From Escherichia phage vB_EcoM_G2133, in the sequence record MK327928.1: 64,000 bases of DNA; one strand, 5' to 3'. The notes under the pieces were generated by a model, which was given only the letters and a program-made list of their open reading frames with translations, was not told where the DNA came from and did not search any database. Positions 2,484 to 40,815 of this stretch are shown one piece after another. A program made the translations under genes and the position numbers. The stretch's first letter is position 1, and every line of letters starts with the position of its first letter.

Positions 2484-2513
2484 ATTATACCACATCCTTG
2501 TGGTAAAGTAAAC
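2484..2513 (-). promoter_or_regulatory. T4-type early promoter (GTTTAC, 18-bp spacer, TATAAT)
   Basis: minus strand GTTTAC (2513..2508) and TATAAT (2489..2484) preceded by tgg. Confidence 0.6.
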
Positions 2514-25414: not shown

Positions 25415-25448
25415 TTCATTCTCTAAATCCGTATCAGTTGATAGTTGT

Positions 25449-25478
25449 ATAGTACCACAGAAGAACAGTCTTGTAAAC
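25449..25478 (-). promoter_or_regulatory. early promoter variant (-10 TACTAT), member of a repeated promoter-leader family
   Basis: GTTTAC (25478..25473), 18-bp spacer, gtggTACTATAC. Confidence 0.45.
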
Positions 25479-25566
25479 AGTTTTGTGAAAAATTTTTTAG
25501 GGAATTCTAAAGGTCCAGAATCATCTGTTTTTCATAAGTATAGATTTATATTACTTGTATGAAAAA

Positions 25567-25582
25567 GGGACCCGGAGGTCCC
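25567..25582 (-). terminator. stem-loop gggacc-cgga-ggtccc downstream of gene 43
   Basis: 6-bp G/C stem, 4-nt loop, 14 nt after the gp43 stop. Confidence 0.5.
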
Positions 25583-25595
25583 TAGATTTATTCTA

Positions 25596-28292
25596 TCAGC
25601 CAAACAGGAAGTCTAACGAAGCTTTTTCTTCATAGTCCATACCAGCCGATTCACACATACCTGCAAGCGGTTTAACAAACGATTTTTGGAACAAAGTTGA
25701 GTAGTCAATCCAAGATAGTACATCAGAACGAATTTCTTTTGGAAGTTCTGTACCTGATGGCCAAGCAATGCACTTGTCACCAAATGGATTTCCTTCACGT
25801 AATGGAAGAACCATTACTTTATTTCCATCCAAAATTGGAGCTACACCTAAACCGTTAACAGCTCGACGATAAGTTAGCACACCACGAATATGGAACGGGC
25901 ATTTAAATCCTGGCCAACCTTTATCATCATATTTCGCTATATCGTTCGCAGTTTTTACTTCAGCAATAACTTTATAGTCAAGTTGACGATATTCTTTCTC
26001 GAAGTTCTTGTAATATTCTTGGACAGACTCTTCACCTTCCTGAAGAATACGACGAATACTTTCTTCGAGAGCTTCTTGTACTGCTTTTGGTGTTGAACTC
26101 TGTTGAGTTTCCATACCCATGATTTTTAGATGCGGTTCAGCAAATCGCTTATCTTCCATATCATAAACGTTCAGAGCATAACGTTTTTTCGCTTTCCAAA
26201 ATCCGCCAACGCCCTTTGAACCAAGTGGAGGACAAGAAATAGCTTCACGGTCCATATGCATCAGATGCTCGCGGTTATTCATATAATCACATAACTCACG
26301 ATATGCAACATCAATCATAGGTTCCATCTTTTTCTTACCGAACTGATTCATGAATTCAACTAAATCGTTCTGCTCTTTAAAACGGTCAAGACCAACTTTT
26401 TCAATAACTTTATCTACGCAAACATATACCGAATCAGTATCACCTGCTGCGATGAAATCTTCACCGTTAGTTCCGCATACTTTATTCAGATATTCATTAA
26501 TTTTACGAGCAATCCACTGAATACCGACTTGACCAAAAATTGTGATAGCAGTAGCATTTCGCAAATCATAGTAACGGAAATGAATATTACCAAGAGCACC
26601 ATAAAGACTGTTAATAAGAATTTTACGGTTCAGCTGATTTGTATTAGCAAGTGTAGCCGCTTTTTCACATTCCTCAATCAGACTATTGAGAACAGATTCG
26701 GTGTAATTCGACAGTTCATTTAAAAAATCATCAGTGAACTTAACATATCGTTCAACTTCTGGTTTAGTTGAACAAGACCCTGCGCCTTTCATAATAATCT
26801 TTTTAATAGCTTCGGCATTCATTTCTTCAGCGAACATTTTCTTTTTCCAATCTTTACGCTGGAAAAATACTTTAGCGATTTCCTTTGGAATGATACCTTC
26901 TTGGTGCTTATCATACATCCATCCATTCGGAGAGCAAGAATATTCATCACTTGGCTTAGGAGCCGTTCCTGCGATATATTCATGAATTGGATGAACTTTA
27001 AACTGCCCACGAATAGTCTCAGGACTAATGTTAACCTGACGAATAATGCTAGGATACAGAGACGTCAAGTCAAAACTCATAATGTATCGACGAGCAATCG
27101 GTTTAGGTTCAAATACAAATGCACCTGGAAAACTCTGTTTAACGTGCGAACCTTGTTGAGGAATAACCTTATGTTCACCTTTCAGTGAGTTAAAAATAAT
27201 AGCATCCCAAGTTTTAATAGGACTCATTACACCAGAAAAAGGCATTTTAGCGTAATAAGACATACTTAAAACTAGATCGATAAACCCGCGAATTTTATCA
27301 ATTGCTTGAACTGATTCTACGTCAATGATGTTATAACTAATGTATCGTTGATGATTAGTCTCACGAAGTTTATTAATAGGACCGTCGTATGGTAATTTAC
27401 CTTTTTTGGTTTCATGTTGAGCAACTGATTCCAAAGAGAATGACGGCAAATTAGTAAAAGCAAATTTCTTGTACAAATCTAAATAATCAAGAATAGATAC
27501 GCCATCAATAGAATAAATTTCTTTGCTACCGTACATATTTTGAATTAGTTTAGATTTTACCCGACCGATTGGAGAGAAACGTTTCATACTGCGTTCACCT
27601 AGAATCATTTTAACACGATTCATGATATATGGAACGTCAAACCCCTCAATATTCCAACCAGTAAAAATAGCAGGTCGTTTCTGTTCCCAGAGATTGATAT
27701 ATTCCATGAGCATATCACGCTCATTATCGAATGGCATATAAATTACTCGGTCAAGAATTTCTTGAGGAACTTCATCACCACCTTCACAGTCAAGCTTAGC
27801 AGCTAACTTTGCATCCCATTTTGATACTGAACCATACATTGAATTCAAAAGGTCGAAAACATAAAAACGATCATCAATTGAATCATAATGAGTGATAGCA
27901 TCAATTTCATATTCAGCTTTCATTGGGTCAGGAAATTTATCACCAGTAACCTCAATGTCACAGTTAGCTACACGAACAAATTTTCGGTCATAAACAATTT
28001 CTGAACCATACGTATCACTGATATAAGCGAGTTTAAAATCGTTCATACCGAGAGCTTCGAGACCGATGTCTTCCATTCGCTTCATCCAATCTCGAGCATC
28101 TTTCATTGATGGAAATTTTTGAGGAGCGCAGTTTTTACCGTAGATGTCTTTGTATTTTGACTCTTCCTTACAATGCCTAAACATAGTCGGAAGATATTCT
28201 ACTTCACGAGTACGTTCCTTTCCGTTTTCATCAATATAACGTTCAACAATGTTATTTCCGACTGTTTCAATAGAGATATAAAATTCTTTCAT
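25596..28292 (-). CDS. 43: DNA polymerase gp43 (family B)
   Basis: 898 aa; MKEFYISIETVGNNI; 3'-5' exo motifs and polymerase motif AAGDTDSVYV. Confidence 0.9.
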   Translation of the reverse strand: MKEFYISIETVGNNIVERYIDENGKERTREVEYLPTMFRHCKEESKYKDIYGKNCAPQKFPSMKDARDWMKRMEDIGLEALGMNDFKLAYISDTYGSEIVYDRKFVRVANCDIEVTGDKFPDPMKAEYEIDAITHYDSIDDRFYVFDLLNSMYGSVSKWDAKLAAKLDCEGGDEVPQEILDRVIYMPFDNERDMLMEYINLWEQKRPAIFTGWNIEGFDVPYIMNRVKMILGERSMKRFSPIGRVKSKLIQNMYGSKEIYSIDGVSILDYLDLYKKFAFTNLPSFSLESVAQHETKKGKLPYDGPINKLRETNHQRYISYNIIDVESVQAIDKIRGFIDLVLSMSYYAKMPFSGVMSPIKTWDAIIFNSLKGEHKVIPQQGSHVKQSFPGAFVFEPKPIARRYIMSFDLTSLYPSIIRQVNISPETIRGQFKVHPIHEYIAGTAPKPSDEYSCSPNGWMYDKHQEGIIPKEIAKVFFQRKDWKKKMFAEEMNAEAIKKIIMKGAGSCSTKPEVERYVKFTDDFLNELSNYTESVLNSLIEECEKAATLANTNQLNRKILINSLYGALGNIHFRYYDLRNATAITIFGQVGIQWIARKINEYLNKVCGTNGEDFIAAGDTDSVYVCVDKVIEKVGLDRFKEQNDLVEFMNQFGKKKMEPMIDVAYRELCDYMNNREHLMHMDREAISCPPLGSKGVGGFWKAKKRYALNVYDMEDKRFAEPHLKIMGMETQQSSTPKAVQEALEESIRRILQEGEESVQEYYKNFEKEYRQLDYKVIAEVKTANDIAKYDDKGWPGFKCPFHIRGVLTYRRAVNGLGVAPILDGNKVMVLPLREGNPFGDKCIAWPSGTELPKEIRSDVLSWIDYSTLFQKSFVKPLAGMCESAGMDYEEKASLDFLFG

Positions 28293-28350
28293 AGATATTC
28301 CTTAGTTTATAGCCCGAGTTATTAGGCTCTTGATATATTATACTCCAAAT

Positions 28351-28368
28351 AAGGGGCCGAAGCCCCTT
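28351..28368 (-). terminator. stem-loop aaggggc-cgaa-gcccctt downstream of regA
   Basis: 7-bp stem, 4-nt loop, followed on the minus strand by ggagTATAAT. Confidence 0.5.
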
Positions 28369-28370
28369 GC

Positions 28371-28739
28371 TTAATTACCAATCGTATATTTAGGAACGAG
28401 ATTCCATTCATGTTTTTGTTTAAAAGAAATAACTCGGAAGTTATTAGTTAAATCTTTCATAAAAGTTCTTTGACCAGGAACGATTTCAATCAGTCCCCAA
28501 TCTTCTAATAGCCATGCAATCGAATCACGACGAACTTCATCTTCTTCTGTCATTTCAACTTGGCGACCATCCATACGAAGCATTTCTTTAAAATGAACGA
28601 TATAGTATAGTCCTTTTTTCTGAAGAATATGACAGGACTGATACAGAACTTTATCTTTATTATTAGCAATTCCCATACGAGTCAAAGTTTCTTTTACTTT
28701 CAGAAAATCTTCAGGTTTTTTAAGAGTAATTTCAATCAT
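28371..28739 (-). CDS. regA: translational repressor RegA
   Basis: 122-aa ORF at the T4 regA position. Confidence 0.75.
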   Translation of the reverse strand: MIEITLKKPEDFLKVKETLTRMGIANNKDKVLYQSCHILQKKGLYYIVHFKEMLRMDGRQVEMTEEDEVRRDSIAWLLEDWGLIEIVPGQRTFMKDLTNNFRVISFKQKHEWNLVPKYTIGN

Positions 28740-28740
28740 T

Positions 28741-29325
28741 TTACCATTCCAATGCTAGTTTTTTGAGTTGTTTCTGTTCTTTTACGTTCTTAGTCACTTC
28801 TTTCAAAAAATCATCCGTGACTAATCCTTTAAGTTCTTTTAATACTAAAGGTAGTTTTCCATTTTTAGTAAGAATTGATTTATAGTTAATTGCATCATTT
28901 GTATTAACTTGATACCGCTTAGCAAGTAACTTAATAATCAATACTTCGGTGGAATCTTCAACTAGTTTTGCCCATTTACCATATCTTTTACCACGAGGAA
29001 CTGCAGCCATTAGATAATTAAAATGAGCTTCATCACTTAAGCCTGATCCAATTAAATTCATAGCATATACAGCTGGCATGCACTCCGGAAATTGCGATAA
29101 TGCATTCTCAACCATGTATTTTGAATAATCTTTTTGAGCAATAGAGCATTTAGTTTTATTATTAATAGCTCCAATTATTTCAAAAAACTCATTTTCAGCT
29201 TTTTCTTTAAAAGAATCGGCAGCGGATTGGACAGCTGTCCAATCTTTAGAATACCAAGCAACTTGATGCTCGTTTAATTGAATATCATCTTCAAATAAGC
29301 TCATATCACTTCCACTGCATTTCAC
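28741..29325 (-). CDS. 62: clamp loader small subunit gp62
   Basis: 194-aa ORF between gp44 and regA. Confidence 0.7.
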
Positions 29326-30280
29326 ATGCTAATTGAATGAAAAGATAAGCTAAATGTAATTCAGTGTTAGCTGCAATTCCATGATACTGATTATTTTCAC
29401 CAACAATTTCGTACATACGAATAATACTTTGCGGAGTTACACGTGAATAGATTTCTTCGGCAAGTTTACCCACGAACCACGAATAATCAGCCGCATATTT
29501 TGGTGCTAAAGCTCTGAGTTGTTTAACATCTTTATTTTTGAGAGACTCAAGAACATCATCAATAGCACCACGATCGTTAGTAACCAGTGATAAAATACCA
29601 GCATCCAAAACACCTTTAGATGAATAACTATCGAGCTCGCCAATAGTTTTACGAAAATCAGGAAAATTCTTTTTAACCAAAGCTGCTACAACTTTCATAT
29701 CAGCTATAGCAATTCCTTCATGCTTACAGATTTCAGTCAATCGACGAATCATCTGCTTCATCATTTCAATTTTATCTTCATCGGTCGGTTGACCGAACGT
29801 AATAACTCGGCAGCGTGACTGAAGCGGTTTAATAATACCATCAATATTATTAGCAGTAATAATAATACTGCAGTTTGAACTATAAGCTTCCATAAAGGAA
29901 CGAAGATGTCGCTGAGACTCTGCTAACCCTGAGCGGTCAAATTCATCAATAACGATTACTTTTTGACGACCATCAAATGAAGCAGCGCTGGCAAAATTAG
30001 TCAAAGGACCACGAACGAAATCAATTTTACAGTCTGATCCATTCACAAACATCATATCAGCATTTACATCATGACACAATGCTTTTGCTACAGTTGTTTT
30101 ACCTGTTCCTGGAGAAGGAGAATGAAGAATAATATGTGGAATCTTACCTTTACTTGTAATAGATTTAAAGGTTTCTTTATCAAAGGCGGGAAGAATACAT
30201 TCATCGATAGTAGATGGACGATATTTCTGTTCAAGAATGTGTTCTTTTTCATTTACGGTAATCATAATTTCCTCATTCAA
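29306..30280 (-). CDS. 44: clamp loader ATPase gp44 (AAA+)
   Basis: 324 aa; Walker A GTGKTT; Walker B VIVIDEFD; SRC motif. Confidence 0.85.
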
Positions 30281-30297
30281 GTTTTAGTGTAAATTAT

Positions 30298-30315
30298 AAA
30301 GGGCCGAAGCCCTTT
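30298..30315 (-). terminator. stem-loop aaagggc-cgaa-gcccttt downstream of gene 45
   Basis: 7-bp stem; identical hairpin sequence at 35885..35902. Confidence 0.5.
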
Positions 30316-30316
30316 A

Positions 30317-31003
30317 TTAAAAATCGTGGGTAGAATCAGCTTCAAGAGCTACTACATAATTCGCATGTTCACCTTCAAATTTAGCAGCACCTTGTTTACC
30401 TTTTGCCCAGAGCAGAAGTTTATAATTTCCTGGTTGCATTTTCATATTTGCCATATTGATAATGAAATTAAATGTATTTTCACCATCATAATCACCAAGA
30501 GTCAAAGAATATTTAACACGGGTCAAAGCAGAATCTTCTACTTTATTAAAACCGTTAATTACGATTTTACCTTCTTTTACTGTGATAGCAATTGTATCAA
30601 TTTGCAGACCACGAGATACACGCAATAGTTGTTGAAGGTCTTCAGCTTTAATTTCAGTAACAACAGATGCTACCGGGAATGGAATTGGTTTATTAGGAGC
30701 AACTACTGTACTCGGATCGGCTGCTGGCCAAAAAATTGTTGAACGAGCATCAGCAATTTTAATATTTCCATCTTCTGACTGGGAAATTTCTGCATCATCA
30801 TTAACTAGAGACAGAATACCGAGAAAACCGTTCAAATCGTAAATTGCTACATCAAAATCAATAACGTCAGAAATATTTGCTTCCGCATAAGTTGTACCAT
30901 TAACTGCGCGAGTCATAATAAATTGACCTGATTTAAGCATAATACCGGAGTTAATAGTAGCAAAATTTTTAAGCAGAGCAGTAGTATCTTTAGACAGTTT
31001 CAT
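30317..31003 (-). CDS. 45: sliding clamp gp45
   Basis: 228 aa; MKLSKDTTALLKNFATINSGIML. Confidence 0.85.
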   Translation of the reverse strand: MKLSKDTTALLKNFATINSGIMLKSGQFIMTRAVNGTTYAEANISDVIDFDVAIYDLNGFLGILSLVNDDAEISQSEDGNIKIADARSTIFWPAADPSTVVAPNKPIPFPVASVVTEIKAEDLQQLLRVSRGLQIDTIAITVKEGKIVINGFNKVEDSALTRVKYSLTLGDYDGENTFNFIINMANMKMQPGNYKLLLWAKGKQGAAKFEGEHANYVVALEADSTHDF

Positions 31004-31058
31004 GTAATTTCCTTCAATTCAAATGAGATTTAATTTTATAACTAATTTAATAAAGCAA

Positions 31059-31448
31059 TTAACGATTAAAATCAGCCGCAATTGTTTCCGCAACAATTTG
31101 AGCAGCAACAATTAGACGTTCATCTGCATTGCCGCAATAATCATCTTCAAGGCGTTCACCACATGAAGTCATAATAAATTTAGCACCGGCGTTTAGGGAT
31201 TCTGTAGTATGTTTGCGCATTAGTTCAATCCATTTATTACTTACTTCACGATCGATAGCTTCATAATATGCATGACGAGCAGGTGCAGATTTAATTTTGT
31301 TCTGAATAACTTCCATTGCGTTATCAGAAAGAGACAAAACCCATGCTCGACGAATTTTATTTTGGTTTTGTGGATTTGATTCAGAACGCACGTGTTTTGG
31401 CTGAATATCTTTTACGTCAACAGTATAATTCACAGTAATTTTAGTCAT
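31059..31448 (-). CDS. rpbA: RNA polymerase binding protein RpbA
   Basis: 129-aa ORF directly upstream of gene 45. Confidence 0.6.
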
Positions 31449-31457
31449 AATACACCT

Positions 31458-31646
31458 TTAGTCATAATAATCAGTAACAGTCCAAGATTCATTTCTATTG
31501 GACATTATTTTTGTATATTCTGCTTTAAATGCATTCCTAAGCATAGATTCAGTAACTATATGCTCTTCATTAGAAAAATTATTTCTCAGAATATATCGTT
31601 TTATTTCAGGAATAGTTAATAGATGCTGTCCAGTTGAATATTCCAT
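31458..31646 (-). CDS. hypothetical small protein (45.2-like)
   Basis: 62-aa ORF. Confidence 0.45.
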   Translation of the reverse strand: MEYSTGQHLLTIPEIKRYILRNNFSNEEHIVTESMLRNAFKAEYTKIMSNRNESWTVTDYYD

Positions 31647-31663
31647 GTTTTTCCTCCATAGAG

Positions 31664-31687
31664 ATTATACTCTAATAAATTAAAGCA
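31664..31687 (-). promoter_or_regulatory. MotA-dependent middle promoter (TGCTTTA, 11-bp spacer, TATAAT)
   Basis: minus strand tatGCTTTAatttattagagTATAAT upstream of the 45.2/rpbA/45 block. Confidence 0.45.
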
Positions 31688-31701
31688 TAATCTCTTATAA
31701 A

Positions 31702-33384
31702 TTAAACCATTACAGTAAATCGACCAACTTTCTTCATTTGAAGATGCTGACCGTATGCTTGCGGGTCATGGTCTCTATGTGAAATAACAAAAACGTTAGT
31801 ATTTTTTAAACTATCTAAAATAGTTGAAATAGCTTTTACACCTTCAACGTCGGTCGCTGAATCAAAAACTTCATCAAGAATTAGTGTGTTTATTTTAACA
31901 CCTGAAACTTTTTCAGCAATATCACGCCAAGTAAATAAAAGAGCAATATCAATTCGTGCTTTTTCACCTTGACTGAATGAAGCATAACTAAAATCTTCAC
32001 GACCACGGGATTTAATTGTCTCATTAAATTCTTCATCTAATGTAAACACATAATCCGCTTCCATTATTTTAAGATAATGGTTAATCTGCTTATTAAATAA
32101 TGGAATGTACTTTTTAATAATAGCACCTTTAATACCAGAATCTTTGAGCATATCAGTCAAAATTCCTCGGTGGTATTTTTCCATTACTAAATTAGTTTTT
32201 GTCTTAACAATTTTATCAAGTTCTTCTTGAAGCAGTGCTATTTCATCAGCATGGTCAATAAACTCAGAAGATGCTTTTTCTATAGCCGCTTTAACCTTTT
32301 TAGCTTTATCTACCGTCGTGATTAGAGATTGCTTTTTATTGCGAATATCATTTGCCAACGACTGTTGGGTTTTAATATTATCTCGGTATTCATCAACAAG
32401 AACTCTTAAATTATCACGATGTGTTGAAAGCTGTTCAAACGAATGCGTACATTCAGAAACTTTATCTTTAATTTTAGAAACAACTTTATCACCGGAACTT
32501 AATTGTGACAAACAGGTTGGACATAATCCACCTTCGTGATACATATTAATGACTTTATTATACGAGTCAATTTTTGATTTAATTAAAAATGCTTCTTGAC
32601 CGATTTTATTAAATGCATCAGTCGGGTCTTCATCCAAAACAATATTAACTAATCTTTCATTAGCTTCTTCTATTTCCGATTTTAGCGTTCTAGCTTCTTT
32701 TGCCAAATCATCATACATATTTTGAAGACGAGTAAGGTTGTCACCCGTTAATTTTTTCTGGCGTTCAACGTTATCATTATATATTTTAATTTGTTGGATA
32801 ATACTATCTTTTTTAACATCAAGCACTTGGTTTTGTGAGTTTAATTCACGTATTAGTGCTTTATTAAGCTTATCCATTTCAGCTAATGTTCCTACCTCGA
32901 GCAGGTCTTCCACAAGCTTTCTTCGCGCAGGGGTCGACAAACCCATGAAAGGGGTATACCCTGCTGTACCAAGGACAACAATCTGCTTGAAACTGGCATA
33001 TGACATTCCGATAAGCTGTTCAAATTCTGCTTGGAAATCTTTACTGCTGGCAGATTCATTAAGACGTGTATCGTTAACGGTGATTTCGAAAACGTTTGGT
33101 TTTTGTCCTCTTTTGATATAGTACTTTTTCTCATCATATTCCATCCACAGTTCAACTAAAAGTTCTTTCTTATTTGTGCTGTTTATTAATTGACCTTTCT
33201 TTACATCGCGAAATGGCTTACCAAAAAGCCCAAATGTGATGGCTTCTAACATAGTAGACTTACCACCGCCATTTCGGCCAGTAATAAGAGTTTTTTGAAC
33301 CTTATCTAATTGAATGTCAACTCCATTTTGACCAACTGACATTATATTTTTATATTTTACTCTATTAAGTTTAAATGATTTCAT
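31702..33384 (-). CDS. 46: recombination nuclease subunit gp46 (Rad50/SbcC-like ATPase)
   Basis: 560 aa; Walker A GRNGGGKST; coiled-coil middle; C-terminal LILDEVFD. Confidence 0.85.
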   Translation of the reverse strand: MKSFKLNRVKYKNIMSVGQNGVDIQLDKVQKTLITGRNGGGKSTMLEAITFGLFGKPFRDVKKGQLINSTNKKELLVELWMEYDEKKYYIKRGQKPNVFEITVNDTRLNESASSKDFQAEFEQLIGMSYASFKQIVVLGTAGYTPFMGLSTPARRKLVEDLLEVGTLAEMDKLNKALIRELNSQNQVLDVKKDSIIQQIKIYNDNVERQKKLTGDNLTRLQNMYDDLAKEARTLKSEIEEANERLVNIVLDEDPTDAFNKIGQEAFLIKSKIDSYNKVINMYHEGGLCPTCLSQLSSGDKVVSKIKDKVSECTHSFEQLSTHRDNLRVLVDEYRDNIKTQQSLANDIRNKKQSLITTVDKAKKVKAAIEKASSEFIDHADEIALLQEELDKIVKTKTNLVMEKYHRGILTDMLKDSGIKGAIIKKYIPLFNKQINHYLKIMEADYVFTLDEEFNETIKSRGREDFSYASFSQGEKARIDIALLFTWRDIAEKVSGVKINTLILDEVFDSATDVEGVKAISTILDSLKNTNVFVISHRDHDPQAYGQHLQMKKVGRFTVMV

Positions 33385-33399
33385 TTTGTATCCAATTGT

Positions 33400-34261
33400 T
33401 CACAATGAAGAAAATTCTTTAACTAAAGCCTGTAATGAAGCCTCTATTGGATATCCATTCTTAACTAACATTTTCCTAAACATCACATGTTTAGGACGAT
33501 TATATGATATCCACAATTCATACAATTTATCTTTATTATCCCAATGATAACCTTTTCGTCGAGATGCTATATGAGCTTTTCTAATCTCCGGATTTTTCCA
33601 ACTAGCAGCTACTGAATTTGATATAGCTATTTTATATTCAGGTTTTGATAAAGCAGCACGAACAGCCTTTTGGTGTTTAATTTTATTTTCTTCGTTATTA
33701 AACCATTCCCTTGAAGCCATTGAAATTTTTTGTTTTGTTTTAAAATTATTTAATCTTTCTTTGTTATCTTTCCTATTTTTTGCTACTGAAAAATATTTTA
33801 ATGCCCTTTCTCTAGCAGCATTTCTATTTTGCGGATTTGAATAATACTGTTGAAGCCTTTTTGATATTGTGTCACTTACATCTTGTTTTATAAAACTATA
33901 CTCAGCAGCTATTAAATCAACTTCGGCTAAAGATAAATTTTTATATGTTTTTCCTGACATCATTCTATTTAAAGCATTTAGCATTTAGCATTTTTCCATT
34001 TTTACCTTTTGCTAATAAGAAATGTGCTTTAAAATGATTAAAATGACTTAAATTAACTAAATTCCATGTAGATTTTAAATATTCAGGAAATATTGATTTA
34101 GGAAGCACGTGGTGTGCTTCCGTTTTACCTGGAGTTTTAACAGTTGAATTCATAGAAATAAAATTAATGTAAGACTTGGCGTCTTCTTCACTCAACGCTA
34201 ATTTTTCAACTAATTCCTTTATTAAAAATTCATCATTAATGTCAAGTTTAAAATTCTTCAC
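33400..34261 (-). pseudogene. HNH homing endonuclease (Mob-like) split into two ORFs by an extra copy of a 7-bp repeat
   Basis: ORF 33965..34261 carries HNH motif EAHHVLPKS...NLVNLS...HFKAHF; ORF 33400..33984 matches the C-terminal half of the intact HNH ORF 53868..54647. Confidence 0.65.
33973..33993. repeat. heptamer agcattt x3 (minus strand aaatgct) at the HNH frameshift point
   Basis: three exact tandem copies; two copies would give a continuous reading frame. Confidence 0.9.
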
Positions 34262-34473
34262 AAAAGATTCCTTTTAATGTATCTTTTAGACCATTCTATC
34301 ATATCATCATAATCTAAAAAGTATTCATCAAATTCAGCCATGCAAACAACACCTTGTGCTGTTTTTGATGTAATATAAATTATTCCAACATATCTAGAAT
34401 CTTCTTCGGTATAATCAATGTTTGCTATGAATTCATCATTAATGTCAAATGTCGAAAACTTCACAGTATGCAT
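34258..34473 (-). CDS. hypothetical small protein (likely start ATG 34473)
   Basis: 71 aa from MHTVKFSTFDINDEF; N-terminal coding sequence repeated at the HNH start. Confidence 0.4.
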   Translation of the reverse strand: MHTVKFSTFDINDEFIANIDYTEEDSRYVGIIYITSKTAQGVVCMAEFDEYFLDYDDMIEWSKRYIKRNLL

Positions 34474-34708
34474 CCTTAATACAAGATACAGCCATATCTC
34501 GTAATGATTTAGGCGTGTCATTATCTAAAATGTTGAAGTTAAAAGATACAGCCCAATCAGTGCAGACTGTAACCTTTTTAATATAATTATCTTCAACCTC
34601 TAGTGGTTCAAACCAGTATTCAATAATTTCTTTATGACCAATATCATCTTTTACTTCGCATTCAAAATGCTGACTCATCATAACATTTTTAAATTCATCA
34701 AAAGTCAT
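34445..34708 (-). CDS. hypothetical protein
   Basis: 87-aa ORF immediately downstream of gene 47. Confidence 0.45.
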   Translation of the reverse strand: MTFDEFKNVMMSQHFECEVKDDIGHKEIIEYWFEPLEVEDNYIKKVTVCTDWAVSFNFNILDNDTPKSLRDMAVSCIKDAYCEVFDI

Positions 34709-35724
34709 TGTGTTGCCTCTACATATAACTGATTTGCATATTGAATAAGTGCTTCACGGTCAGAATCAGTGATGTCTGGAATTGCATTAATGTATTCTTC
34801 CATCAATGTCTGAAGCGATTGAACTTCAACTTCTTCACTGTTATCTGACTCGACAGAGTTATCAATCTTTGACACAACTCGTAATGAATGCACAACTTTT
34901 TCTAGTTCAGATTCGAACTTCGTCAGATTTTTGTCTACTTCAGTTACTATAACACGTACTGATAGATTTGTAAAATCTTTATAGTCAATTTTTCCTTTAA
35001 ATGGATAATGAATTCTACGATGCCAGGTAGTATTGTTTGGAATAAATTCCATTCGTTCTGTTTCTGTATCAAACATCCAGAACCCGCGAGGGTCATTCTC
35101 GTCACCTGCTGTTAGTGTCCATGGTGTCCCAATATATCTGACGTTAGCAGCCTCAGAAATAGTATGGAAGTGACCAGACCACACTTCTTTATAAGTCTTA
35201 AGGAAATCAGGTTCAAGACCATGAGATTTCATTCCTTTATAAAAATAAAATCCATTCAGTTCCCAGTGACCAACACAAAAAGAAGCAGATGAAGTTTTGA
35301 TGTGCTCAAGAATTTCACCAGTATTTTCTTCGCACATCCAAGGAATCAAATCAATCAAACACCCGTCAAAATCTACTGTAGTAGGCTTATCATATACTTT
35401 AACATTAGGATATTTAGCCAAAAGCTCAGTAGAAGCATTTGGAGTTAAAGTATTTTTAAAGTGCATATCATGGTTTCCTACAACAGTATGTAGGGTAATA
35501 CCAGCATCATCAAGCATTTGAACTATTTCACGAGCGAACTCCATAGTTTTATGCGTGATTGCTTTTCGCACATCAAAAATATCGCCGTATTGAATCCATG
35601 TAGTAATTTCATTTTTCTTAGAATATTCTATGGCTTGTTTAATTCCATCCAACTGAATGGATTGAACCCACTCATCATCGGCTTTAACGCCTAAATGCCA
35701 ATCACCTAAATTTAAAATTTTCAT
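34705..35724 (-). CDS. 47: recombination nuclease subunit gp47 (Mre11/SbcD-like)
   Basis: 339 aa; phosphoesterase motifs LGDWHLG, GDIFD, GNHD. Confidence 0.85.
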   Translation of the reverse strand: MKILNLGDWHLGVKADDEWVQSIQLDGIKQAIEYSKKNEITTWIQYGDIFDVRKAITHKTMEFAREIVQMLDDAGITLHTVVGNHDMHFKNTLTPNASTELLAKYPNVKVYDKPTTVDFDGCLIDLIPWMCEENTGEILEHIKTSSASFCVGHWELNGFYFYKGMKSHGLEPDFLKTYKEVWSGHFHTISEAANVRYIGTPWTLTAGDENDPRGFWMFDTETERMEFIPNNTTWHRRIHYPFKGKIDYKDFTNLSVRVIVTEVDKNLTKFESELEKVVHSLRVVSKIDNSVESDNSEEVEVQSLQTLMEEYINAIPDITDSDREALIQYANQLYVEATQ

Positions 35725-35859
35725 ATATCAAGAACCGTCATTGAAATGCAAAATAAAATTATTGAAATAAATCCATCTGGAGTGCTAAAGAACCCAATCC
35801 AACATGCTCTAGTGAATAGATAAAATGCAAGAAAAAGTATCACATATCCAAGAAATATC

Positions 35860-35883
35860 ATTATATCAAACTCCGTATAAAGC
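35860..35883 (-). promoter_or_regulatory. MotA-dependent middle promoter for gene 47 (aGCTTTA, 12-bp spacer, TATAAT)
   Basis: minus strand aGCTTTAtacggagtttgaTATAAT immediately 3' of hairpin 35885..35902. Confidence 0.45.
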
Positions 35884-35884
35884 T

Positions 35885-35902
35885 AAAGGGCCGAAGCCCT
35901 TT
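35885..35902 (-). terminator. stem-loop aaagggc-cgaa-gcccttt at the alpha-gt stop
   Basis: 7-bp stem, UUCG loop on the minus-strand RNA. Confidence 0.5.
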
Positions 35903-37103
35903 ATTTTGTAATAATGTCAAACTGTTCTTTAAAGCAGAAGCTTGAATCTTGATGTTGATACAAAAATTCATACGCTTTTTCACGTTCGCGGTCATAAAGA
36001 GCTCGGTCAGATGACAGTTCTTTAATACGCTCAAACGTTGATTCCATATCATTTTCATCAAACCAAATGATACCGCTATCATGCGAGGTCAAAGGAGTAT
36101 TATCAACACGGAATTTTAAATTTTCGCCAGTAGATTTCCAAAATACCGGAATTGTTCCACATGCACCAAGCTCGAGATGAGTATATTCTAAAGAACGCTG
36201 TAGATATTTTTTATCCAACTTACTCAGCTGATAACCAAATCCGGATTTACTCATGCGTTCAAGCATTTCGCTATTTACATAACGGTCAAGAATTTGCGTT
36301 GGCAAATTAGGAGCAATTTTAATTTGGTCTACTTGATGAAGACGATAATACTCGTATGGAATTCCTTTTTCTTTAATAGGAATGAACGCTGGAGAACGTT
36401 CCAGACCTTCCATAATAGTACTTAGTCCTGCAGGTTTAAGATGTTTTTCATGAAAATCAAACATCTGATAAAAACCTTTCCATGTAGTCGTACGACCAAT
36501 CCAACGGTTGATATTCATGTTAATTTCAGAAACATCTTTCCAGTAGGTTGATCGAACCTTCGCAATATCCATAGGAGGCTGAAAGTTATATACTGTCGGC
36601 GCTTCTTCAATATCATCAAACAGAGAAACTGTTTCCGGATACCATTCTTTCATCAGAACTTTATTAAAATCGCCATTATCAGAATGGCTAAAAATAACAT
36701 CAGCTCGACGAACAGTTTCTTCTAATCCCAAATTTCGACGCAAAGAAAGAGAAGAATGGTCATGCTGATAAACTACAACACGAACAGAAGGTTTAATGTT
36801 ATCAATAATTTTTTTATAGTTATTAATAGTGTCTTCTTCAACCGAAGTAGCAGGAACTGAATTGATAATTAGAATATCACAATCATTTACCAGCTTAAGT
36901 GTTTTATCGTATTCTTTTGCCAATAAAACCGGAATTGAAAATGATTTATAATCATGCGCGCAATTACGAGTAAATGATTTATCTTTAGCATAAACCAAAG
37001 TCACTTCATGACCATTTTTAATAAACCAATCACGTTGCTCGAGTGAGAATTTAGTTACACCACAACCTTCAAGACCTCGAGCCATAAAAATACATACTTT
37101 CAT
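35901..37103 (-). CDS. agt: DNA alpha-glucosyltransferase
   Basis: 400-aa ORF, MKVCIFMARGLEGCGVTKFSLEQRDWF. Confidence 0.75.
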   Translation of the reverse strand: MKVCIFMARGLEGCGVTKFSLEQRDWFIKNGHEVTLVYAKDKSFTRNCAHDYKSFSIPVLLAKEYDKTLKLVNDCDILIINSVPATSVEEDTINNYKKIIDNIKPSVRVVVYQHDHSSLSLRRNLGLEETVRRADVIFSHSDNGDFNKVLMKEWYPETVSLFDDIEEAPTVYNFQPPMDIAKVRSTYWKDVSEINMNINRWIGRTTTWKGFYQMFDFHEKHLKPAGLSTIMEGLERSPAFIPIKEKGIPYEYYRLHQVDQIKIAPNLPTQILDRYVNSEMLERMSKSGFGYQLSKLDKKYLQRSLEYTHLELGACGTIPVFWKSTGENLKFRVDNTPLTSHDSGIIWFDENDMESTFERIKELSSDRALYDREREKAYEFLYQHQDSSFCFKEQFDIITK

Positions 37104-37153
37104 TTAATATCCTCTTTGTTTTGGTTTATTTTACCAAAAATTTATAAAGCAAT

Positions 37154-37173
37154 ATAGGAGCCGAAGCTCCTAT
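37154..37173 (-). terminator. stem-loop ataggagc-cgaa-gctcctat
   Basis: 8-bp stem, overlaps stop of small ORF 37170..37286. Confidence 0.5.
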
Positions 37174-37286
37174 CCACATAATACGCCATACAGAGGCTCG
37201 TTAGAACTTTTAAATTTTATGCGCTTATATTTTATAGTTCCTTCTGCTTTAGCTTTATCATGAGACTCTTTAAAGCGTCTCATCAT
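37170..37286 (-). CDS. hypothetical basic small protein, 38 aa, not in ORF track
   Basis: MMRRFKESHDKAKAEGTIKYKRIKFKSSNEPLYGVLCG; AAGAGGA ribosome-binding site. Confidence 0.35.
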   Translation of the reverse strand: MMRRFKESHDKAKAEGTIKYKRIKFKSSNEPLYGVLCG

Positions 37287-37346
37287 TTCCTCTTTAGAGG
37301 AACGAATTTTATTATAATCTATTTCAGAAGTCTGGGTGTTCATCTT

Positions 37347-37553
37347 TCATAACTGCCACCATTTTTTGACTTGATAAGAATCAACCCACACTTTCATATT
37401 AGGGTCTGCTCTTACAATAGGAGAATTAACTTCTTTAATTGAACTATCATGGTATTCTTTTTCAGAAATTTTCACACAAAGATGACCATTCAAAGATTCA
37501 GTAAATCCTGCATTAATTTTAAGACGCTTGAATTTTACGTGTGTAAGCATCAA
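37347..37553 (-). CDS. hypothetical small protein
   Basis: 68-aa ORF. Confidence 0.4.
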   Translation of the reverse strand: MMLTHVKFKRLKINAGFTESLNGHLCVKISEKEYHDSSIKEVNSPIVRADPNMKVWVDSYQVKKWWQL

Positions 37554-37836
37554 TCATATCCTCAATCTGCGATCTAGTAGTCTTCCAAAGAATACTGATG
37601 AGTTCATCGTTATATGGCTGTTTTAGAATATCCCGACTTTTCTTGATAGCATATTCGTATTGAGCAAAATTATTATTTTCAGCTGCAATCTGAGCGTGCT
37701 TATAAAGACGATTCAGTTCGCGTTTGTTTTTAGACAATAACTTATTTGCTTTTCTTTCTGCTTCAAGACGGTTCTTTTCTTCAATAGAAGAAATAAGCTT
37801 TTCCACTTCATCATTAATTTCGGGTTTATCAGTCAT
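37519..37836 (-). CDS. hypothetical protein
   Basis: 105-aa ORF. Confidence 0.45.
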   Translation of the reverse strand: MTDKPEINDEVEKLISSIEEKNRLEAERKANKLLSKNKRELNRLYKHAQIAAENNNFAQYEYAIKKSRDILKQPYNDELISILWKTTRSQIEDMIDAYTRKIQAS

Positions 37837-37837
37837 A

Positions 37838-38056
37838 TTATTTCTCTAATATAAAATAAAAATCATCATCTGTTAAATGATACCGATAGTTTAATTCTAC
37901 ACCATTAGATTTAAAAGCGGTATCATACGGATTTTCTGGATCAATATCAATGTCAAGAGCTAAAACTTCCCTGAGATACATTTTAAGTAAATAGGGAATA
38001 GCTTCAACTTCAGGTATTTCTTCCAAGAATCCGGAGAGGTTAATCGTTAGCCTCAT
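37838..38056 (-). CDS. hypothetical small protein
   Basis: 72-aa ORF. Confidence 0.4.
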
Positions 38057-38603
38057 ATAAAAAATCCAAACTAGGAGAATCGTCTACAACACTTTTCTTT
38101 TCAGCCCCCGGTGTTCTATAGGTTGATTCTTCGTAATGCGTCATTTTATCGTAGATGTCTTGAATAAAAGTTTCATCTACTAACGCAACCATATCGTCGT
38201 CACGGCTGTCATAGACATTGTGAACGAAGTAACTATATTTCTTTGCAACTTCCTTACGTTCTTTTTTAATACGTTGGACGAATGCATTAAAACAAGCTTG
38301 AGTTATATACGCATGTGGGTTTTTATATTTCGTTTCATCAAAATTGTGAAGCCCCTTAATAGAAGCTTCTATACCATCTGCAATCATTTCTTGTTTCCAA
38401 GACTGGGTGTATCCTGAAAAGTTGAAACGTTTAGATAAGCCTTCTGCAATAAGCATAATGGCTAATCCGATAGTATCATTCTGACGAACTACTTTATTTG
38501 GGTCTTTATTATTTGCTAATTCTGTTTTCCAATCAATAATAGCTTGTAAAAGCTCTTTATTGTTTACGTAATTATATTTAGGCTTAGTTTCTGACATTTT
38601 CAC
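38040..38603 (-). CDS. 55: late transcription sigma factor gp55
   Basis: 187 aa; [26 protein letters not shown]. Confidence 0.8.
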
Positions 38604-38675
38604 CTCTTAGCTCAATTCATAGATCTATTATATCATAATATTTGAAGATCTATCTTAAAGCATAGAGGATATCAG

Positions 38676-38945
38676 TTATCTAAGTAAGCAGTATGCTTGG
38701 AACACTTTCTCCATCATCTTTTTAAATTCATGAATATCTATGTAATGATCATTAATATCAGCGCGATATAAAAAGTCTAAAAACTTTTTATGGGTATTAG
38801 AATATTTACTTCCAGTTAATTCAGAAACATGGCTTTCCCAATATCCAACACCAGTTTTATTTGGGAAAAATGAAATTTTCATGTATTGGTCAACATAGAA
38901 AATACCAAAATTTTCAATAGCAATAGAAATATTAATTAATTTCAT
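38676..38945 (-). CDS. hypothetical protein
   Basis: 89-aa ORF. Confidence 0.4.
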   Translation of the reverse strand: MKLINISIAIENFGIFYVDQYMKISFFPNKTGVGYWESHVSELTGSKYSNTHKKFLDFLYRADINDHYIDIHEFKKMMEKVFQAYCLLR

Positions 38946-39157
38946 ACATTCATCAACTTAGCCGCTTCGAGAGCTGCATCTAGTGAATCAAATTGGTCAA
39001 CATATTCAATCAATTCGCCGTAATTAGCATATAACCACCATTGGCTAAATTCATACTCAAGGATGAATCCGTTTCCTTCAATTTGAGTTAAACCAATGCC
39101 ATTTGTATTTACTTCATATCCAGCAAGACGCAAATCGTTAATAAGAGCTTCGTTCAT
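38942..39157 (-). CDS. hypothetical small protein
   Basis: 71-aa ORF. Confidence 0.4.
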   Translation of the reverse strand: MNEALINDLRLAGYEVNTNGIGLTQIEGNGFILEYEFSQWWLYANYGELIEYVDQFDSLDAALEAAKLMNV

Positions 39158-39159
39158 AA

Positions 39160-39486
39160 TTATACCTTAGTAATTTTCAGGTCTGCAAATTTTTTCTTGC
39201 GTTGATTTTTCATACGACGAATAGTCTTATCGGAAATTTCATGCTTTTGATAAGCTTTAGATTCTACACCAAAAGCTTTAACATCAAATTCTGACAAGAT
39301 ATATTGAACCAACAATTCACGGACAGTATTGCGTCCAATCTTCTGATCATTCTGTTTCATCGTCTGATGAAGCTCTTTTTCCCATTTATCCAAAATTTGA
39401 GGAGTTACAATATCGCCTTTTTCTAGCAAAGAAACTACTTTATCATATGCGTAAGAATTGATGGCGTTTTTAATTTGAATAGTCAT
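39160..39486 (-). CDS. hypothetical protein
   Basis: 108-aa ORF. Confidence 0.45.
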   Translation of the reverse strand: MTIQIKNAINSYAYDKVVSLLEKGDIVTPQILDKWEKELHQTMKQNDQKIGRNTVRELLVQYILSEFDVKAFGVESKAYQKHEISDKTIRRMKNQRKKKFADLKITKV

Positions 39487-39525
39487 ACATTATCCTCAAT
39501 TACGTTAAAATTTTATTATCCAAAA

Positions 39526-39541
39526 AAGGGCCGAAGCCCTT
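39526..39541 (-). terminator. stem-loop aagggc-cgaa-gccctt
   Basis: 6-bp stem, UUCG loop. Confidence 0.5.
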
Positions 39542-39740
39542 AGCTAAACTTTTTGGCACCCTTCCAGCCTTCATACATCATTGCGGCTGATATTAATATT
39601 GCTCCTGAGCAACTTGAATATTTGTGATTCCAAAACCAGTTCAGAAAAACTTCGTCATCAATACCTTGTGCTATCATATTTTCAAAGAACTGACGACGAG
39701 CTTCGGCAATTCGCTGCGATAATTTAGATTCAGGATTCAT
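39540..39740 (-). CDS. hypothetical small protein
   Basis: 66-aa ORF. Confidence 0.4.
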   Translation of the reverse strand: MNPESKLSQRIAEARRQFFENMIAQGIDDEVFLNWFWNHKYSSCSGAILISAAMMYEGWKGAKKFS

Positions 39741-39872
39741 TTAAATTTCCCAATTACCGTTTTCATCAATAAATTTAATCCAGTCATTTACTGACCACTT
39801 AGTTGTATCACCCTTTGGAGTAACATTTAAAGTGTATAGCCCTTGCTTAAAAAGCATGCGTTTGATATTCAT
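39741..39872 (-). CDS. hypothetical small protein (start ATG 39872, GAGGA site)
   Basis: 43 aa MNIKRMLFKQGLYTLNVTPKGDTTKWSVNDWIKFIDENGNWEI. Confidence 0.35.
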   Translation of the reverse strand: MNIKRMLFKQGLYTLNVTPKGDTTKWSVNDWIKFIDENGNWEI

Positions 39873-39879
39873 ATTTTCC

Positions 39880-40173
39880 TCAGCTGTAACGATAACACTC
39901 GTTTGATTTACGTTTAGCGACTCGTTGAGAAGTATTATAATCAAAATCATCGTCAATGTAAACTGATTTTTTCAACTTTCTTACTTCACCGCGTAATTGA
40001 CGATTTAACTCATCTTTAACTTCTGAATCAATACCTTTCATTCTACGCCATTTATCTGAGCGAAAAATGTTTTCAACCATATCTTTATGACTTACACCGT
40101 CAGGAGCTTTACGCTTTCCGAAATAGTCATAATCACGCACTTTCAAGTCTTTACGACGATACGTTTTACCCAT
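39880..40173 (-). CDS. hypothetical basic protein (start ATG 40173)
   Basis: 97 aa from MGKTYRRKDLK. Confidence 0.45.
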   Translation of the reverse strand: MGKTYRRKDLKVRDYDYFGKRKAPDGVSHKDMVENIFRSDKWRRMKGIDSEVKDELNRQLRGEVRKLKKSVYIDDDFDYNTSQRVAKRKSNECYRYS

Positions 40174-40348
40174 GGAGTTTAATTTCCTTAGCAACTGAAC
40201 TAAATGCAGCACGATCACAAATCATGCGTTTATGTAACTTGAGTATAATATAGCAAACTTCAAAACTATTTACATGAGTAACACGAACAGCATTACCATT
40301 AATGAGATAATACTGTCCCTTTTTAATTTCTTTATCAACCATAACCAT
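40166..40348 (-). CDS. hypothetical small protein
   Basis: 60-aa ORF directly downstream of early promoter 40378..40407. Confidence 0.4.
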   Translation of the reverse strand: MVMVDKEIKKGQYYLINGNAVRVTHVNSFEVCYIILKLHKRMICDRAAFSSVAKEIKLHG

Positions 40349-40377
40349 ATCAATTCCTCAAAGGTAATTCATATGTT

Positions 40378-40407
40378 AATAATACCACGGTTTGAACTTG
40401 TTGTAAA
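40378..40407 (-). promoter_or_regulatory. early promoter (-10 TATATT)
   Basis: GTTTAC (40407..40402), 18-bp spacer, gtggTATATT. Confidence 0.4.
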
Positions 40408-40489
40408 CAACTTTGTGAAAAATATTTTAGGGAATGACAAGAAGGGAACGATAGCTTAGAATGGTAATATACAGAATGTAAGAAAGAAA

Positions 40490-40502
40490 GGCCCAGAGGG
40501 CC
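40490..40502 (-). terminator. short G/C stem-loop downstream of nrdH
   Basis: ggccc-aga-gggcc. Confidence 0.3.
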
Positions 40503-40506
40503 CGCC

Positions 40507-40815
40507 TTAGTCTTCTATGATATCTCTATCATATCCAAGTGAAATGAGAGTTTCTTTGAAGTGTTTAATGTTCTTTTGTCTAGAATCATTGATGAAAATG
40601 ACTGGATAACGAATGTTAAGAGATGTGAATCCAGCGCGTTTAGCAAGAGATACAATCAGTGGACGATCATACTCAATCTTACCATTATTTGTAAGAACTT
40701 TATAGAAAGTAAAAGGAGCATTGAGCTCCTTTAGAAGTTTTGTAACTGATTGACATCCAGGACAACGACCTACTTCATCTGGAATTCCATAGACTTCAAT
40801 CTTATTTTGTTTCAC
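40507..40815 (-). CDS. nrdH: glutaredoxin-like protein NrdH
   Basis: 102 aa; redox motif CPGC. Confidence 0.6.
   Translation of the reverse strand: MKQNKIEVYGIPDEVGRCPGCQSVTKLLKELNAPFTFYKVLTNNGKIEYDRPLIVSLAKRAGFTSLNIRYPVIFINDSRQKNIKHFKETLISLGYDRDIIED

What the first reader, a model, noticed from the sequence alone, without database searches (positions are those of the whole stretch)
33973..33993. HNH homing endonuclease gene split by an extra heptamer copy
Three exact tandem copies of agcattt (minus strand aaatgct) sit at the point where the HNH ORF (33965..34261, motif EAHHVLP...NLVNLS...HFKAHF) stops and a second ORF (33400..33984) begins in another frame. The second ORF matches the C-terminal half of the intact HNH ORF at 53868..54647 (KDKLYELWISYNRPKHV vs YDLLYKLWIKLNRPKRG). 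With two copies the frame is continuous (...GKNGKMLNALNRMM...), so this is either a slippage-generated pseudogene or a repeat that could toggle expression by slippage.
Basis: seen in the sequence. Interest (0 to 1): 0.65.

Follow-up and report, generated by a model that had tools for sequence, protein, structure and literature searches.

The report
Frameshifted Mob-like homing endonuclease pseudogene
One T4-like phage genome (Escherichia phage vB_EcoM_G2133) carries a selfish HNH homing-endonuclease gene broken in two by a recent 7-base tandem duplication, which is the ordinary way such genes decay rather than a switch.

Summary
AGCATTT occurs three times in exact tandem at 33973..33993. On the minus strand this ends a 98-aa ORF carrying the HNH motif and opens a 194-aa ORF in the +1 frame.

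Deleting one heptamer gives a 284-aa protein identical to an annotated "homing endonuclease" found on 41 other contigs. All 70 phage records that carry this gene have exactly two copies. The two split ORFs occur as exact sequences on only one contig, that of Escherichia phage vB_EcoM_G2133, which is therefore the source of the window.

The gene is a free-standing, Mob-like HNH homing endonuclease gene. It is a 30%-identical paralogue of T4 mobD, which is intact at 53868..54647. It sits between genes 46.1 and 46 and is present in about 71 of 517 related records.

Two other independent frameshifts disrupt the same gene elsewhere: -1 in RB51/RB68/Ac3 and -2 in T2/SV76.

The best explanation is a recent slipped-strand duplication that made a pseudogene. 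I found no support for a slippage switch or programmed frameshift: only 2-3 repeat units, no copy-number polymorphism, no slippery site and no RNA structure.

The finding is ordinary and of low interest. In passing, a 55-bp exact duplication that splits rIIA at 522..631 looks like an assembly artefact.

The parts
33973..33993 (-). Three exact tandem heptamers (AAATGCT on the coding strand, AGCATTT on +). Relatives have two, so one copy is a 7-nt insertion that shifts the frame by +1.
   Evidence: the only indel in the gene against KMB40, T6 and C2-3; 70/70 records have two copies.
33400..34261 (-). The whole disrupted Mob-like HNH homing endonuclease gene: 862 nt here against 855 nt (284 aa) when intact.
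   Evidence: phrog_655 'homing endonuclease' E=7.8e-45; repaired protein identical to P0001.
33965..34261 (-). ORF1, 98 aa. It holds native residues 1-94, which include every residue invariant across the family (Y31, H50, H51, P54, N67, H76, H80), then KCFK and a stop. GenBank QBO60798.1.
   Evidence: The AF2 model has strands 47-51 and 68-72 and helix 73-84.
33965..33967 (-). Premature TAG stop created by the frameshift.
33400..33984 (-). ORF2, 194 aa, equal to native residues 91-284: the helical C-terminal part, presumed to bind DNA. It starts at the ATG inside the second heptamer. GenBank QBO60797.1.
   Evidence: (phrog_655 positions 93-265).
33958..33963 (-). ATGATG (native M98 M99) in ORF2's frame, one nucleotide after ORF1's TAG. 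It is a possible termination-reinitiation point; this is an inference only.
   Evidence: Read directly.
34244..34261 (-). The first 18 nt of the endonuclease gene (GTGAAGAATTTTAAACTT) are identical to the first 18 nt of gene 46 in T4, which lacks the insert. The gene therefore uses the ancestral gene-46 start, which overlaps the 46.1 stop.
31702..33384 (-). Gene 46 (SbcC/Rad50-like nuclease subunit), immediately downstream. Its 5' end is rebuilt (ATGAAATCATTTAAACTT), and TTTAAACTT is repeated at both junctions of the insert.
34258..34464 (-). Gene 46.1 (DUF5487), immediately upstream. Its stop overlaps the endonuclease GTG start.
   Evidence: coordinates transferred from L001.
53868..54647 (-).
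   Evidence: 99.7-100% nucleotide identity to mobD of T4 and RB3.

Best explanation
The window comes from Escherichia phage vB_EcoM_G2133, a Tequatrovirus. Between genes 46.1 and 46 it carries a free-standing, Mob-like HNH homing endonuclease gene found in only a minority of T4-like phages.

In this one genome, a pre-existing direct repeat of two heptamers (AAATGCT AAATGCT, encoding ...K-M-L-N-A-L...) has gained a third copy. This is most likely replication slippage of the Streisinger type. The +7 insertion shifts the frame after residue 94 of 284, in the helix that follows the predicted beta-beta-alpha core, and a TAG stop follows four codons later.

The catalytic module (98 aa) is thereby uncoupled from the C-terminal, presumed DNA-binding module (194-aa ORF), so the endonuclease is most likely inactivated. 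This is a recent event in the usual decay of a selfish homing gene.

Shown here: the insertion, its uniqueness, the intact ancestor, the family assignment and the independent lesions in other phages. Inferred: the slippage mechanism, the loss of function, and that the change is real rather than an error.
For: - **Identity of the window.** The 98-aa and 194-aa ORFs exist as exact sequences on only one contig, QBO60798.1 and QBO60797.1 of phage G2133. The repaired 284-aa protein is identical to P0001, seen on 41 contigs and named homing endonuclease.
- **Two copies is the norm.** All 70 phage-collection records with this gene span 194 nt against 201 nt in the window. They match the two-copy version over the full 194-nt span at 97.9% or better.
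- **Intact relatives.** KMB40, T6 and C2-3 have an intact 855-nt ORF.
- **A recent event.** Apart from the heptamer, the G2133 allele differs from KMB40 at only 2 of 855 nucleotides.
- **The same gene decays elsewhere.** It carries a -1 frameshift at codon 175 in RB51, and two-piece matches of the same span in RB68 and Ac3. It carries a -2 frameshift at codons 203-204 in T2, and two-piece matches of the same span in the other T2 records and SV76.
- **Family.** phrog_655 E=7.8e-45 and phrog_12434 'HNH endonuclease' E=4.4e-15. It is 30% identical to mobD in the same window. The invariant H50, H51, N67, H76 and H80 are retained. NUMOD3 is found in 23 of 76 relatives. Matches to predicted viral structures include MobD-like, Mob-like and MobE proteins, plus a borderline match to T4 MobC at E=1.1e-3.
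- **Sporadic presence.** About 71 of 517 records that match the flanks hold the gene, and T4 lacks it.
- **Assembly quality.** Over 15.4 kb at 97.5% identity to C2-3 there are only two indels: this one and a 1-nt intergenic A.
- **Literature.** Phage homing endonuclease genes are described as unstable through frameshifts, including an HNH gene followed by a separate DNA-binding-domain gene read as one frameshifted homing gene (PMC10448857). T4 I-TevIII is inactive through a deletion (PMC2988022).
Against: - No sequencing reads are available, so a sequencing or assembly error, or a minority variant in the stock, cannot be formally excluded.
- Loss of function is inferred, not measured. All invariant catalytic residues survive in ORF1. 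ORF2 keeps an ATG, and an ATGATG lies one nucleotide after ORF1's stop, so both halves could still be made.
- The intact protein has never been shown to cleave DNA. I found no literature on this gene at the 46.1/46 position.
- Pfam does not call an HNH domain in it, and PDB fold searches did not recover an HNH structure.
Confidence: 0.85

Rival explanations
1. Sequencing or assembly artefact: the real G2133 genome has two heptamers and an intact gene, and the third copy was introduced in silico.
For: - The allele is a singleton, seen on one contig.
- The same record carries what looks like an assembly artefact: an exact 55-bp duplication in rIIA whose length equals the stated SPAdes k-mer.
Against: - A 21-nt array lies inside a single 55-mer, so a de Bruijn assembler cannot add a unit that the reads do not contain.
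- Neither Illumina nor PacBio consensus errors typically produce a clean 7-nt tandem duplication (my own knowledge of the platforms).
- There are no other frame-breaking indels in the surrounding 15.4 kb.
- The rIIA duplication has a specific mechanical cause, an untrimmed overlap of a circular contig, which does not apply here.
Confidence: 0.07
2. Slippage switch (contingency locus): the heptamer tract changes copy number at a useful rate, turning the endonuclease on (2 copies) and off (3 copies).
For: - The repeat is exact and lies inside the coding sequence.
- A gain or loss of one unit does change the frame.
Against: - All 70 independent records have exactly two copies, with no 1-, 3- or 4-copy alleles.
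- The three-copy allele occurs on one contig only.
- Two or three units is far below the tract lengths of known phase-variable loci (my own knowledge).
- Other null alleles of the same gene arise at unrelated positions, as expected for random decay rather than a dedicated switch.
Confidence: 0.03
3. The split gene is still expressed. Either a +1 ribosomal frameshift restores a near-full-length protein, or termination-reinitiation at UAG-A-AUGAUG yields two polypeptides (HNH module and DNA-binding module) that act together or separately.
For: - ORF1 keeps all invariant catalytic residues.
- ORF2's frame has ATG codons one nucleotide after ORF1's stop and 17 nt before it.
- No further mutations have accumulated downstream of the frameshift.
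Against: - The lack of further mutations is equally expected for a very recent lesion.
- By eye I found no recognisable +1 slippery motif or Shine-Dalgarno-like stimulator.
- The RNA around the site is no more structured than shuffled controls (z=+1.25).
- The frameshifted arrangement is not conserved in any relative.
- The break falls inside a predicted helix (89-100) rather than in a linker.
Confidence: 0.05

Closest known systems
Intact orthologue in phage T6 (YP_010067209.1), SHFML-11, KMB40 and others: the 284-aa 'homing endonuclease' between genes 46.1 and 46
   Same: Same locus, same flanks and 99-100% protein identity once one heptamer is removed.
   Different: Those genes have two heptamers and one continuous ORF. 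The window has three heptamers and two ORFs.
T4 MobD and the T4 Mob family (MobA-E), free-standing HNH homing endonucleases
   Same: An N-terminal HH...N...H motif, a helical C-terminal region, the shared family phrog_655, the same orientation as neighbouring genes and use of upstream expression signals.
   Different: Only 30% identity to MobD, a different insertion site (46.1/46 rather than nrdC.11/mobD.1), and disrupted here. Cleavage activity is unknown for both MobD (listed as ND in PMC2988022) and this gene.
Other decayed phage homing endonuclease genes: T4 I-TevIII (deletion; intact in RB3), ICP1 gp115-gp116 (HNH gene plus AP2 gene read as one frameshifted homing gene), and the RB51 and T2 alleles of this same gene
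   Same: A selfish endonuclease gene inactivated by a small lesion while close relatives keep it intact. The nuclease and DNA-binding modules end up in separate ORFs.
   Different: The lesion here is a 7-nt tandem duplication rather than a 1-2-nt indel or a large deletion.
Phase-variable simple-sequence contingency loci of bacteria
   Same: A tandem repeat within a coding sequence whose unit length is not a multiple of three.
   Different: Only 2-3 units and no copy-number polymorphism among 70 relatives, so it is not a member.

Membership tests
Mob-type free-standing HNH homing endonuclease | HNH catalytic motif (His-His ... Asn ... His) on a beta-beta-alpha core | tested here: met
   H50, H51, P54, N67, H76 and H80 are invariant in a 76-sequence family alignment and are present here. 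The AF2 model (pLDDT 95.7) has strands 47-51 and 68-72 and helix 73-84. phrog_12434 'HNH endonuclease' scores E=4.4e-15.
Mob-type free-standing HNH homing endonuclease | Recognised by curated HNH domain models or by fold similarity to solved HNH nucleases | tested here: inconclusive
Mob-type free-standing HNH homing endonuclease | C-terminal modular DNA-binding region (NUMOD-type modules) | tested here: inconclusive
   NUMOD3 is found in 23 of 76 relatives and I-HmuI_NUMOD-like in 3, but not in this protein itself. The model shows a run of helical hairpins over residues 109-283.
Mob-type free-standing HNH homing endonuclease | Stand-alone gene between conserved phage genes, sporadically present among close relatives | tested here: met
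   Present in about 71 of 517 records that match the flanks. Absent from T4, where 46.1 abuts 46 directly.
Mob-type free-standing HNH homing endonuclease | Site-specific nicking or cleavage of the allele that lacks the gene, and over-inheritance in mixed infection | not testable with these tools
   Needs biochemistry or phage crosses. I found no literature on this gene.
Slipped-strand tandem-duplication frameshift (pseudogene) | The insertion is an exact extra unit of a repeat already present in intact relatives, and it breaks the frame with an early stop | tested here: met
   Two copies in 70/70 relatives and three here. The insertion is +7 nt, with a TAG stop four codons later.
Phase-variable contingency locus | A long repeat tract with copy-number polymorphism among closely related genomes | tested here: not met
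   Only 2-3 units. There is no variation among 70 records, and the three-copy allele is on one contig only.
Programmed ribosomal frameshift site | A conserved out-of-frame arrangement with a slippery motif and a stimulatory element | tested here: not met
   The arrangement is unique to one genome. I saw no slippery motif by eye, and the RNA fold z-score is +1.25.

The most novel reading that the evidence does not exclude
The three-copy allele is not dead. One possibility is that ribosomes finishing the 98-aa HNH fragment reinitiate at the AUGAUG one nucleotide downstream, giving a two-piece endonuclease, or a free DNA-binding module that regulates or protects the gene-46 start region. The other is that the heptamer tract slips often enough to act as an on/off switch for a selfish nuclease in a phage.
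Probability: 0.04. Interest if true: 0.45.

Novelty: already known. Interest (0 to 1): 0.1.

Why it matters
It matters little beyond annotation. The two 'hypothetical proteins' of phage G2133 (QBO60798.1 and QBO60797.1) should be merged and flagged as one disrupted homing endonuclease gene.

The case is a clean, datable example of the degeneration step in the homing-endonuclease life cycle. With the RB51-type and T2-type alleles it gives three independent null alleles of one Mob-like gene. These could serve as natural controls if someone tests whether the intact gene homes into the gene 46 region.

Tried and rejected
- **Pattern scans outside the phage collection.** I scanned for TATTTAAAGCATTT-N{0,28}-AGCATTTTTCCATT in IMG/VR, JGI metagenomes and GTDB genomes. 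None returned a hit, even for the common two-copy allele, although the pattern works on the fetched loci. These collections say nothing about copy-number variation.
- **Short megablast query.** A 41-nt query centred on the repeat found nothing. This is uninformative, most likely because the low-complexity filter masks the repeat.
- **MotA-dependent middle promoter.** The heptamer junction AAATGCTTTA resembles a MotA box. I rejected the idea by eye because no TAnnnT lies 11-13 nt downstream.
- **Programmed +1 frameshift.** Rejected: no slippery motif, no structure and no conservation.
- **Rfam.** A scan of the whole window found nothing.
- **Promoter and terminator scan around the gene.** It found no more promoter-like sites than in shuffled sequence.

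Full report
**Observation.** The plus strand reads ...tttaa AGCATTT AGCATTT AGCATTT ttcc... at 33973..33993. Tandem Repeats Finder reports period 7, 3.0 copies and 100% matches. On the minus strand, ORF 33965..34261 (98 aa) carries TEAHHVLP...WNLVNLSHFNHFKAHF and ends ...GKMLNAKCFK*. ORF 33400..33984 (194 aa) starts MLNALNRMM at the ATG inside the second heptamer, in the +1 frame. The intact 259-aa ORF at 53868..54647 is present. An exact 3x7 array occurred in none of 300 dinucleotide-preserving shuffles, but some exact three-copy array of period 5-11 occurred in 19% of them. The repeat is real, but it becomes meaningful only through comparison with relatives.

**Where the window comes from.** The region is a Tequatrovirus, about 97-99% identical to many T4-like coliphages. 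An exact-sequence look-up finds the 98-aa and 194-aa ORFs on only one contig, as QBO60798.1 and QBO60797.1 of Escherichia phage vB_EcoM_G2133, 168,959 bp. That genome is not in the phage BLAST collection, since the best identity over 24 kb was 97.5%. It was published in Korf et al. 2019. In that study phages were sequenced by PacBio RSII with HGAP3 or by MiSeq with SPAdes using a "55kmer", and T4-like contigs were rotated to match published genomes (PMC6563267).

**What the gene is.** The ORFs lie between gene 46 (31702..33384) and gene 46.1, upstream of gene 47 (34705..35724), all on the minus strand.
- The repaired protein hits phrog_655 "homing endonuclease" at E=7.8e-45 and phrog_12434 "HNH endonuclease" at E=4.4e-15. 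ORF1 and ORF2 map to the N- and C-terminal parts of the same profile.
- The comparison ORF at 53868..54647 is mobD itself, 99.7-100% identical in nucleotides to mobD of T4 and RB3.
- An exhaustive HMMER search found 967 relatives at E<=1e-3, and most of the 150 best hits listed share only the N-terminal 100-130 residues.
- In a 76-sequence alignment, Y31, H50, H51, P54, N67, H76 and H80 are invariant, and all are present here.
- Among those relatives, 23 of 76 carry NUMOD3 motifs, 3 carry Pfam HNH and 3 carry the I-HmuI NUMOD-like domain.
- AlphaFold2 with that alignment gives pLDDT 95.7. It shows strands 47-51 and 68-72 and helix 73-84, the expected beta-beta-alpha arrangement around the His/Asn residues. 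Helix 89-100 and a long series of helical hairpins follow.
- Searches of predicted viral structures return MobD-like, Mob-like and MobE proteins, HNHc and NUMOD proteins, and a borderline match to T4 MobC at E=1.1e-3.

I therefore file it as a Mob-like free-standing HNH homing endonuclease gene on sequence grounds. Its activity is untested. [quoted passage not shown]

**Comparative evidence on the heptamer.**
- Seventy records in the phage collection carry this segment. In the 60 listed, the 201-nt query spans 194 nt of the record, and the best identity is 96.5%, which equals 194/201.
- When I searched with the two-copy version instead, all 70 matched. In rows sampled from best to weakest the span was 194 to 194 nt, and identity ran from 100% (KMB40) down to 97.9%. 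Two copies is therefore universal apart from this genome.
- KMB40, T6 and C2-3 have an intact 855-nt ORF.
- The repaired window protein is identical to P0001, which is found on 41 contigs.
- Apart from the 7-nt insertion, the G2133 allele differs from KMB40 at only two nucleotides. The lesion is therefore young.

**Other null alleles of the same gene.** RB51 lacks one A at codon 175, and T2 lacks two bases at codons 203-204. The tblastn survey shows two-piece matches of the same span in RB68 and Ac3 (like RB51) and in the other T2 records and SV76 (like T2). The gene is present in only about 71 of 517 records that match its flanks and is absent from T4. This mix of sporadic presence and repeated independent inactivation is what the literature describes for phage homing endonuclease genes. 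It includes a case where an HNH ORF followed by a DNA-binding-domain ORF was read as one frameshifted homing gene (PMC10448857).

**Is it an artefact?** Against C2-3, window 25401..40806 (15.4 kb, 97.5% identity) contains only two indels: the heptamer and a single A at 39522. The latter is intergenic, next to a GGGCCGAAGCCC hairpin. The record does contain one probable artefact, described below, and its 55-bp length implies a SPAdes k=55 assembly. In such an assembly a 21-nt array sits inside a single k-mer and cannot be expanded unless the reads contain it. I rate the artefact explanation at about 7%. Only reads can settle it.

**Is it a switch or a recoding site?**
- There is no copy-number polymorphism among 70 relatives.
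- Two or three units is well below the tract lengths of known contingency loci (my own knowledge).
- The other null alleles lie at unrelated positions.
- For recoding, the only region where a +1 shift could rescue the protein is AUG CUA AAU GCU AAA UGC UUU AAA UAG. By eye I see no known +1 slippery motif or upstream Shine-Dalgarno-like stimulator there.
- The surrounding 141 nt fold no better than shuffled sequence (z=+1.25).
- One feature keeps a small door open. ORF1's UAG is followed after one nucleotide by AUGAUG in ORF2's frame (33963..33958), so termination-reinitiation could produce the C-terminal module separately. The break lies inside predicted helix 89-100 rather than in a linker, which argues against a functional two-piece enzyme.

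**Mechanism, with the status of each step.**
- The two-copy direct repeat pre-exists in the intact gene. This is shown.
- Strand slippage during replication added a unit. This is inferred, following the classical Streisinger model, which was itself established in T4 (my own knowledge).
- The frame shifts after A94 and terminates at KCFK*. This is shown.
- The nuclease module is separated from the presumed targeting module, so homing is lost. This is inferred.
- The phage suffers no cost because the gene is selfish and dispensable. This is inferred from its absence in T4 and most relatives, which is shown.

**Anatomy noticed on the way.** In T4, gene 46 starts GTGAAGAATTTTAAACTT|AATAGAGTA and overlaps the 46.1 stop. 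In the window and in KMB40 the endonuclease gene begins with exactly these 18 nt and then diverges. Gene 46 has a rebuilt 5' end, ATGAAATCATTTAAACTT|AATAGAGTA, so TTTAAACTT flanks the insert on both sides. The homing gene has thus taken over gene 46's translationally coupled start and supplies a substitute start for gene 46.

**Verdict.** The kind of event is already known, and interest is low.

Noticed in passing
window 522..631 (ORFs 12..545 and 520..2244, minus strand): An exact 55-bp tandem duplication splits rIIA into 574-aa and 177-aa ORFs, and deleting one copy restores a single rIIA ORF of about 725 aa. In the 12 best-matching of 494 relatives listed, this 361-nt stretch spans 306 nt, which is 55 nt fewer. 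The period equals the SPAdes k-mer (55) stated for this phage set, and the T4-like contigs were rotated by hand. It is therefore most likely an untrimmed overlap of a circular contig, not a real rII mutation.
   Followed up: yes
window 34244..34261 and 33367..33384; T4 locus L005 about 3968..3985: The homing endonuclease gene starts with the same 18 nt (GTGAAGAATTTTAAACTT, MKNFKL) as gene 46 of T4, which lacks the insert. It has therefore captured gene 46's start codon and its overlap with the 46.1 stop. Gene 46 in phages that carry the insert has a substitute 5' end (ATGAAATCATTTAAACTT, MKSFKL). TTTAAACTT is a 9-bp direct repeat at both junctions of the insert.
   Followed up: partly
L003 (RB51) and L006 (T2), within the orthologous gene: The same gene carries independent frameshifts: -1 in an A-run at codon 175 in RB51 (same tblastn span in RB68 and Ac3) and -2 at codons 203-204 in T2 (same span in the other T2 records and SV76). 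RB51's annotation simply leaves the region empty.
   Followed up: yes
window 33958..33967, minus strand: ORF1's TAG stop is followed after one nucleotide by ATGATG in ORF2's frame (UAG-A-AUGAUG). This stop-start juxtaposition could allow translational reinitiation of the C-terminal fragment. It was read from the sequence only.
   Followed up: no
window 34101..34121: A 9-bp-stem palindrome (GGAAGCACGTGGTGTGCTTCC) lies exactly over the codons of the catalytic T-E-A-H-H-V-L-P motif. The scan flagged it as terminator-like on the plus (antisense) strand. Its significance is unknown.
   Followed up: no
window 39522: A one-base longer A-run than in phage C2-3, in the intergenic gap next to a GGGCCGAAGCCC hairpin. 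It is the only other indel in 15.4 kb of otherwise collinear sequence.
   Followed up: partly
window 52874..53920 and 53868..54647, minus strand: The intact mobD ORF, 100% identical to RB3 mobD, overlaps by about 53 nt the longest reading of the downstream nrdC.11-like nucleotidyltransferase ORF (TTG start). The overlap probably just reflects an over-long ORF call.
   Followed up: no
window 2513..4333, minus strand: A single 606-aa ORF lies where T4 has gene 39, mobA and gene 60. By ORF length alone this suggests an unsplit topoisomerase large-subunit gene without the gene-60 bypass element. I did not check it by homology.
   Followed up: no
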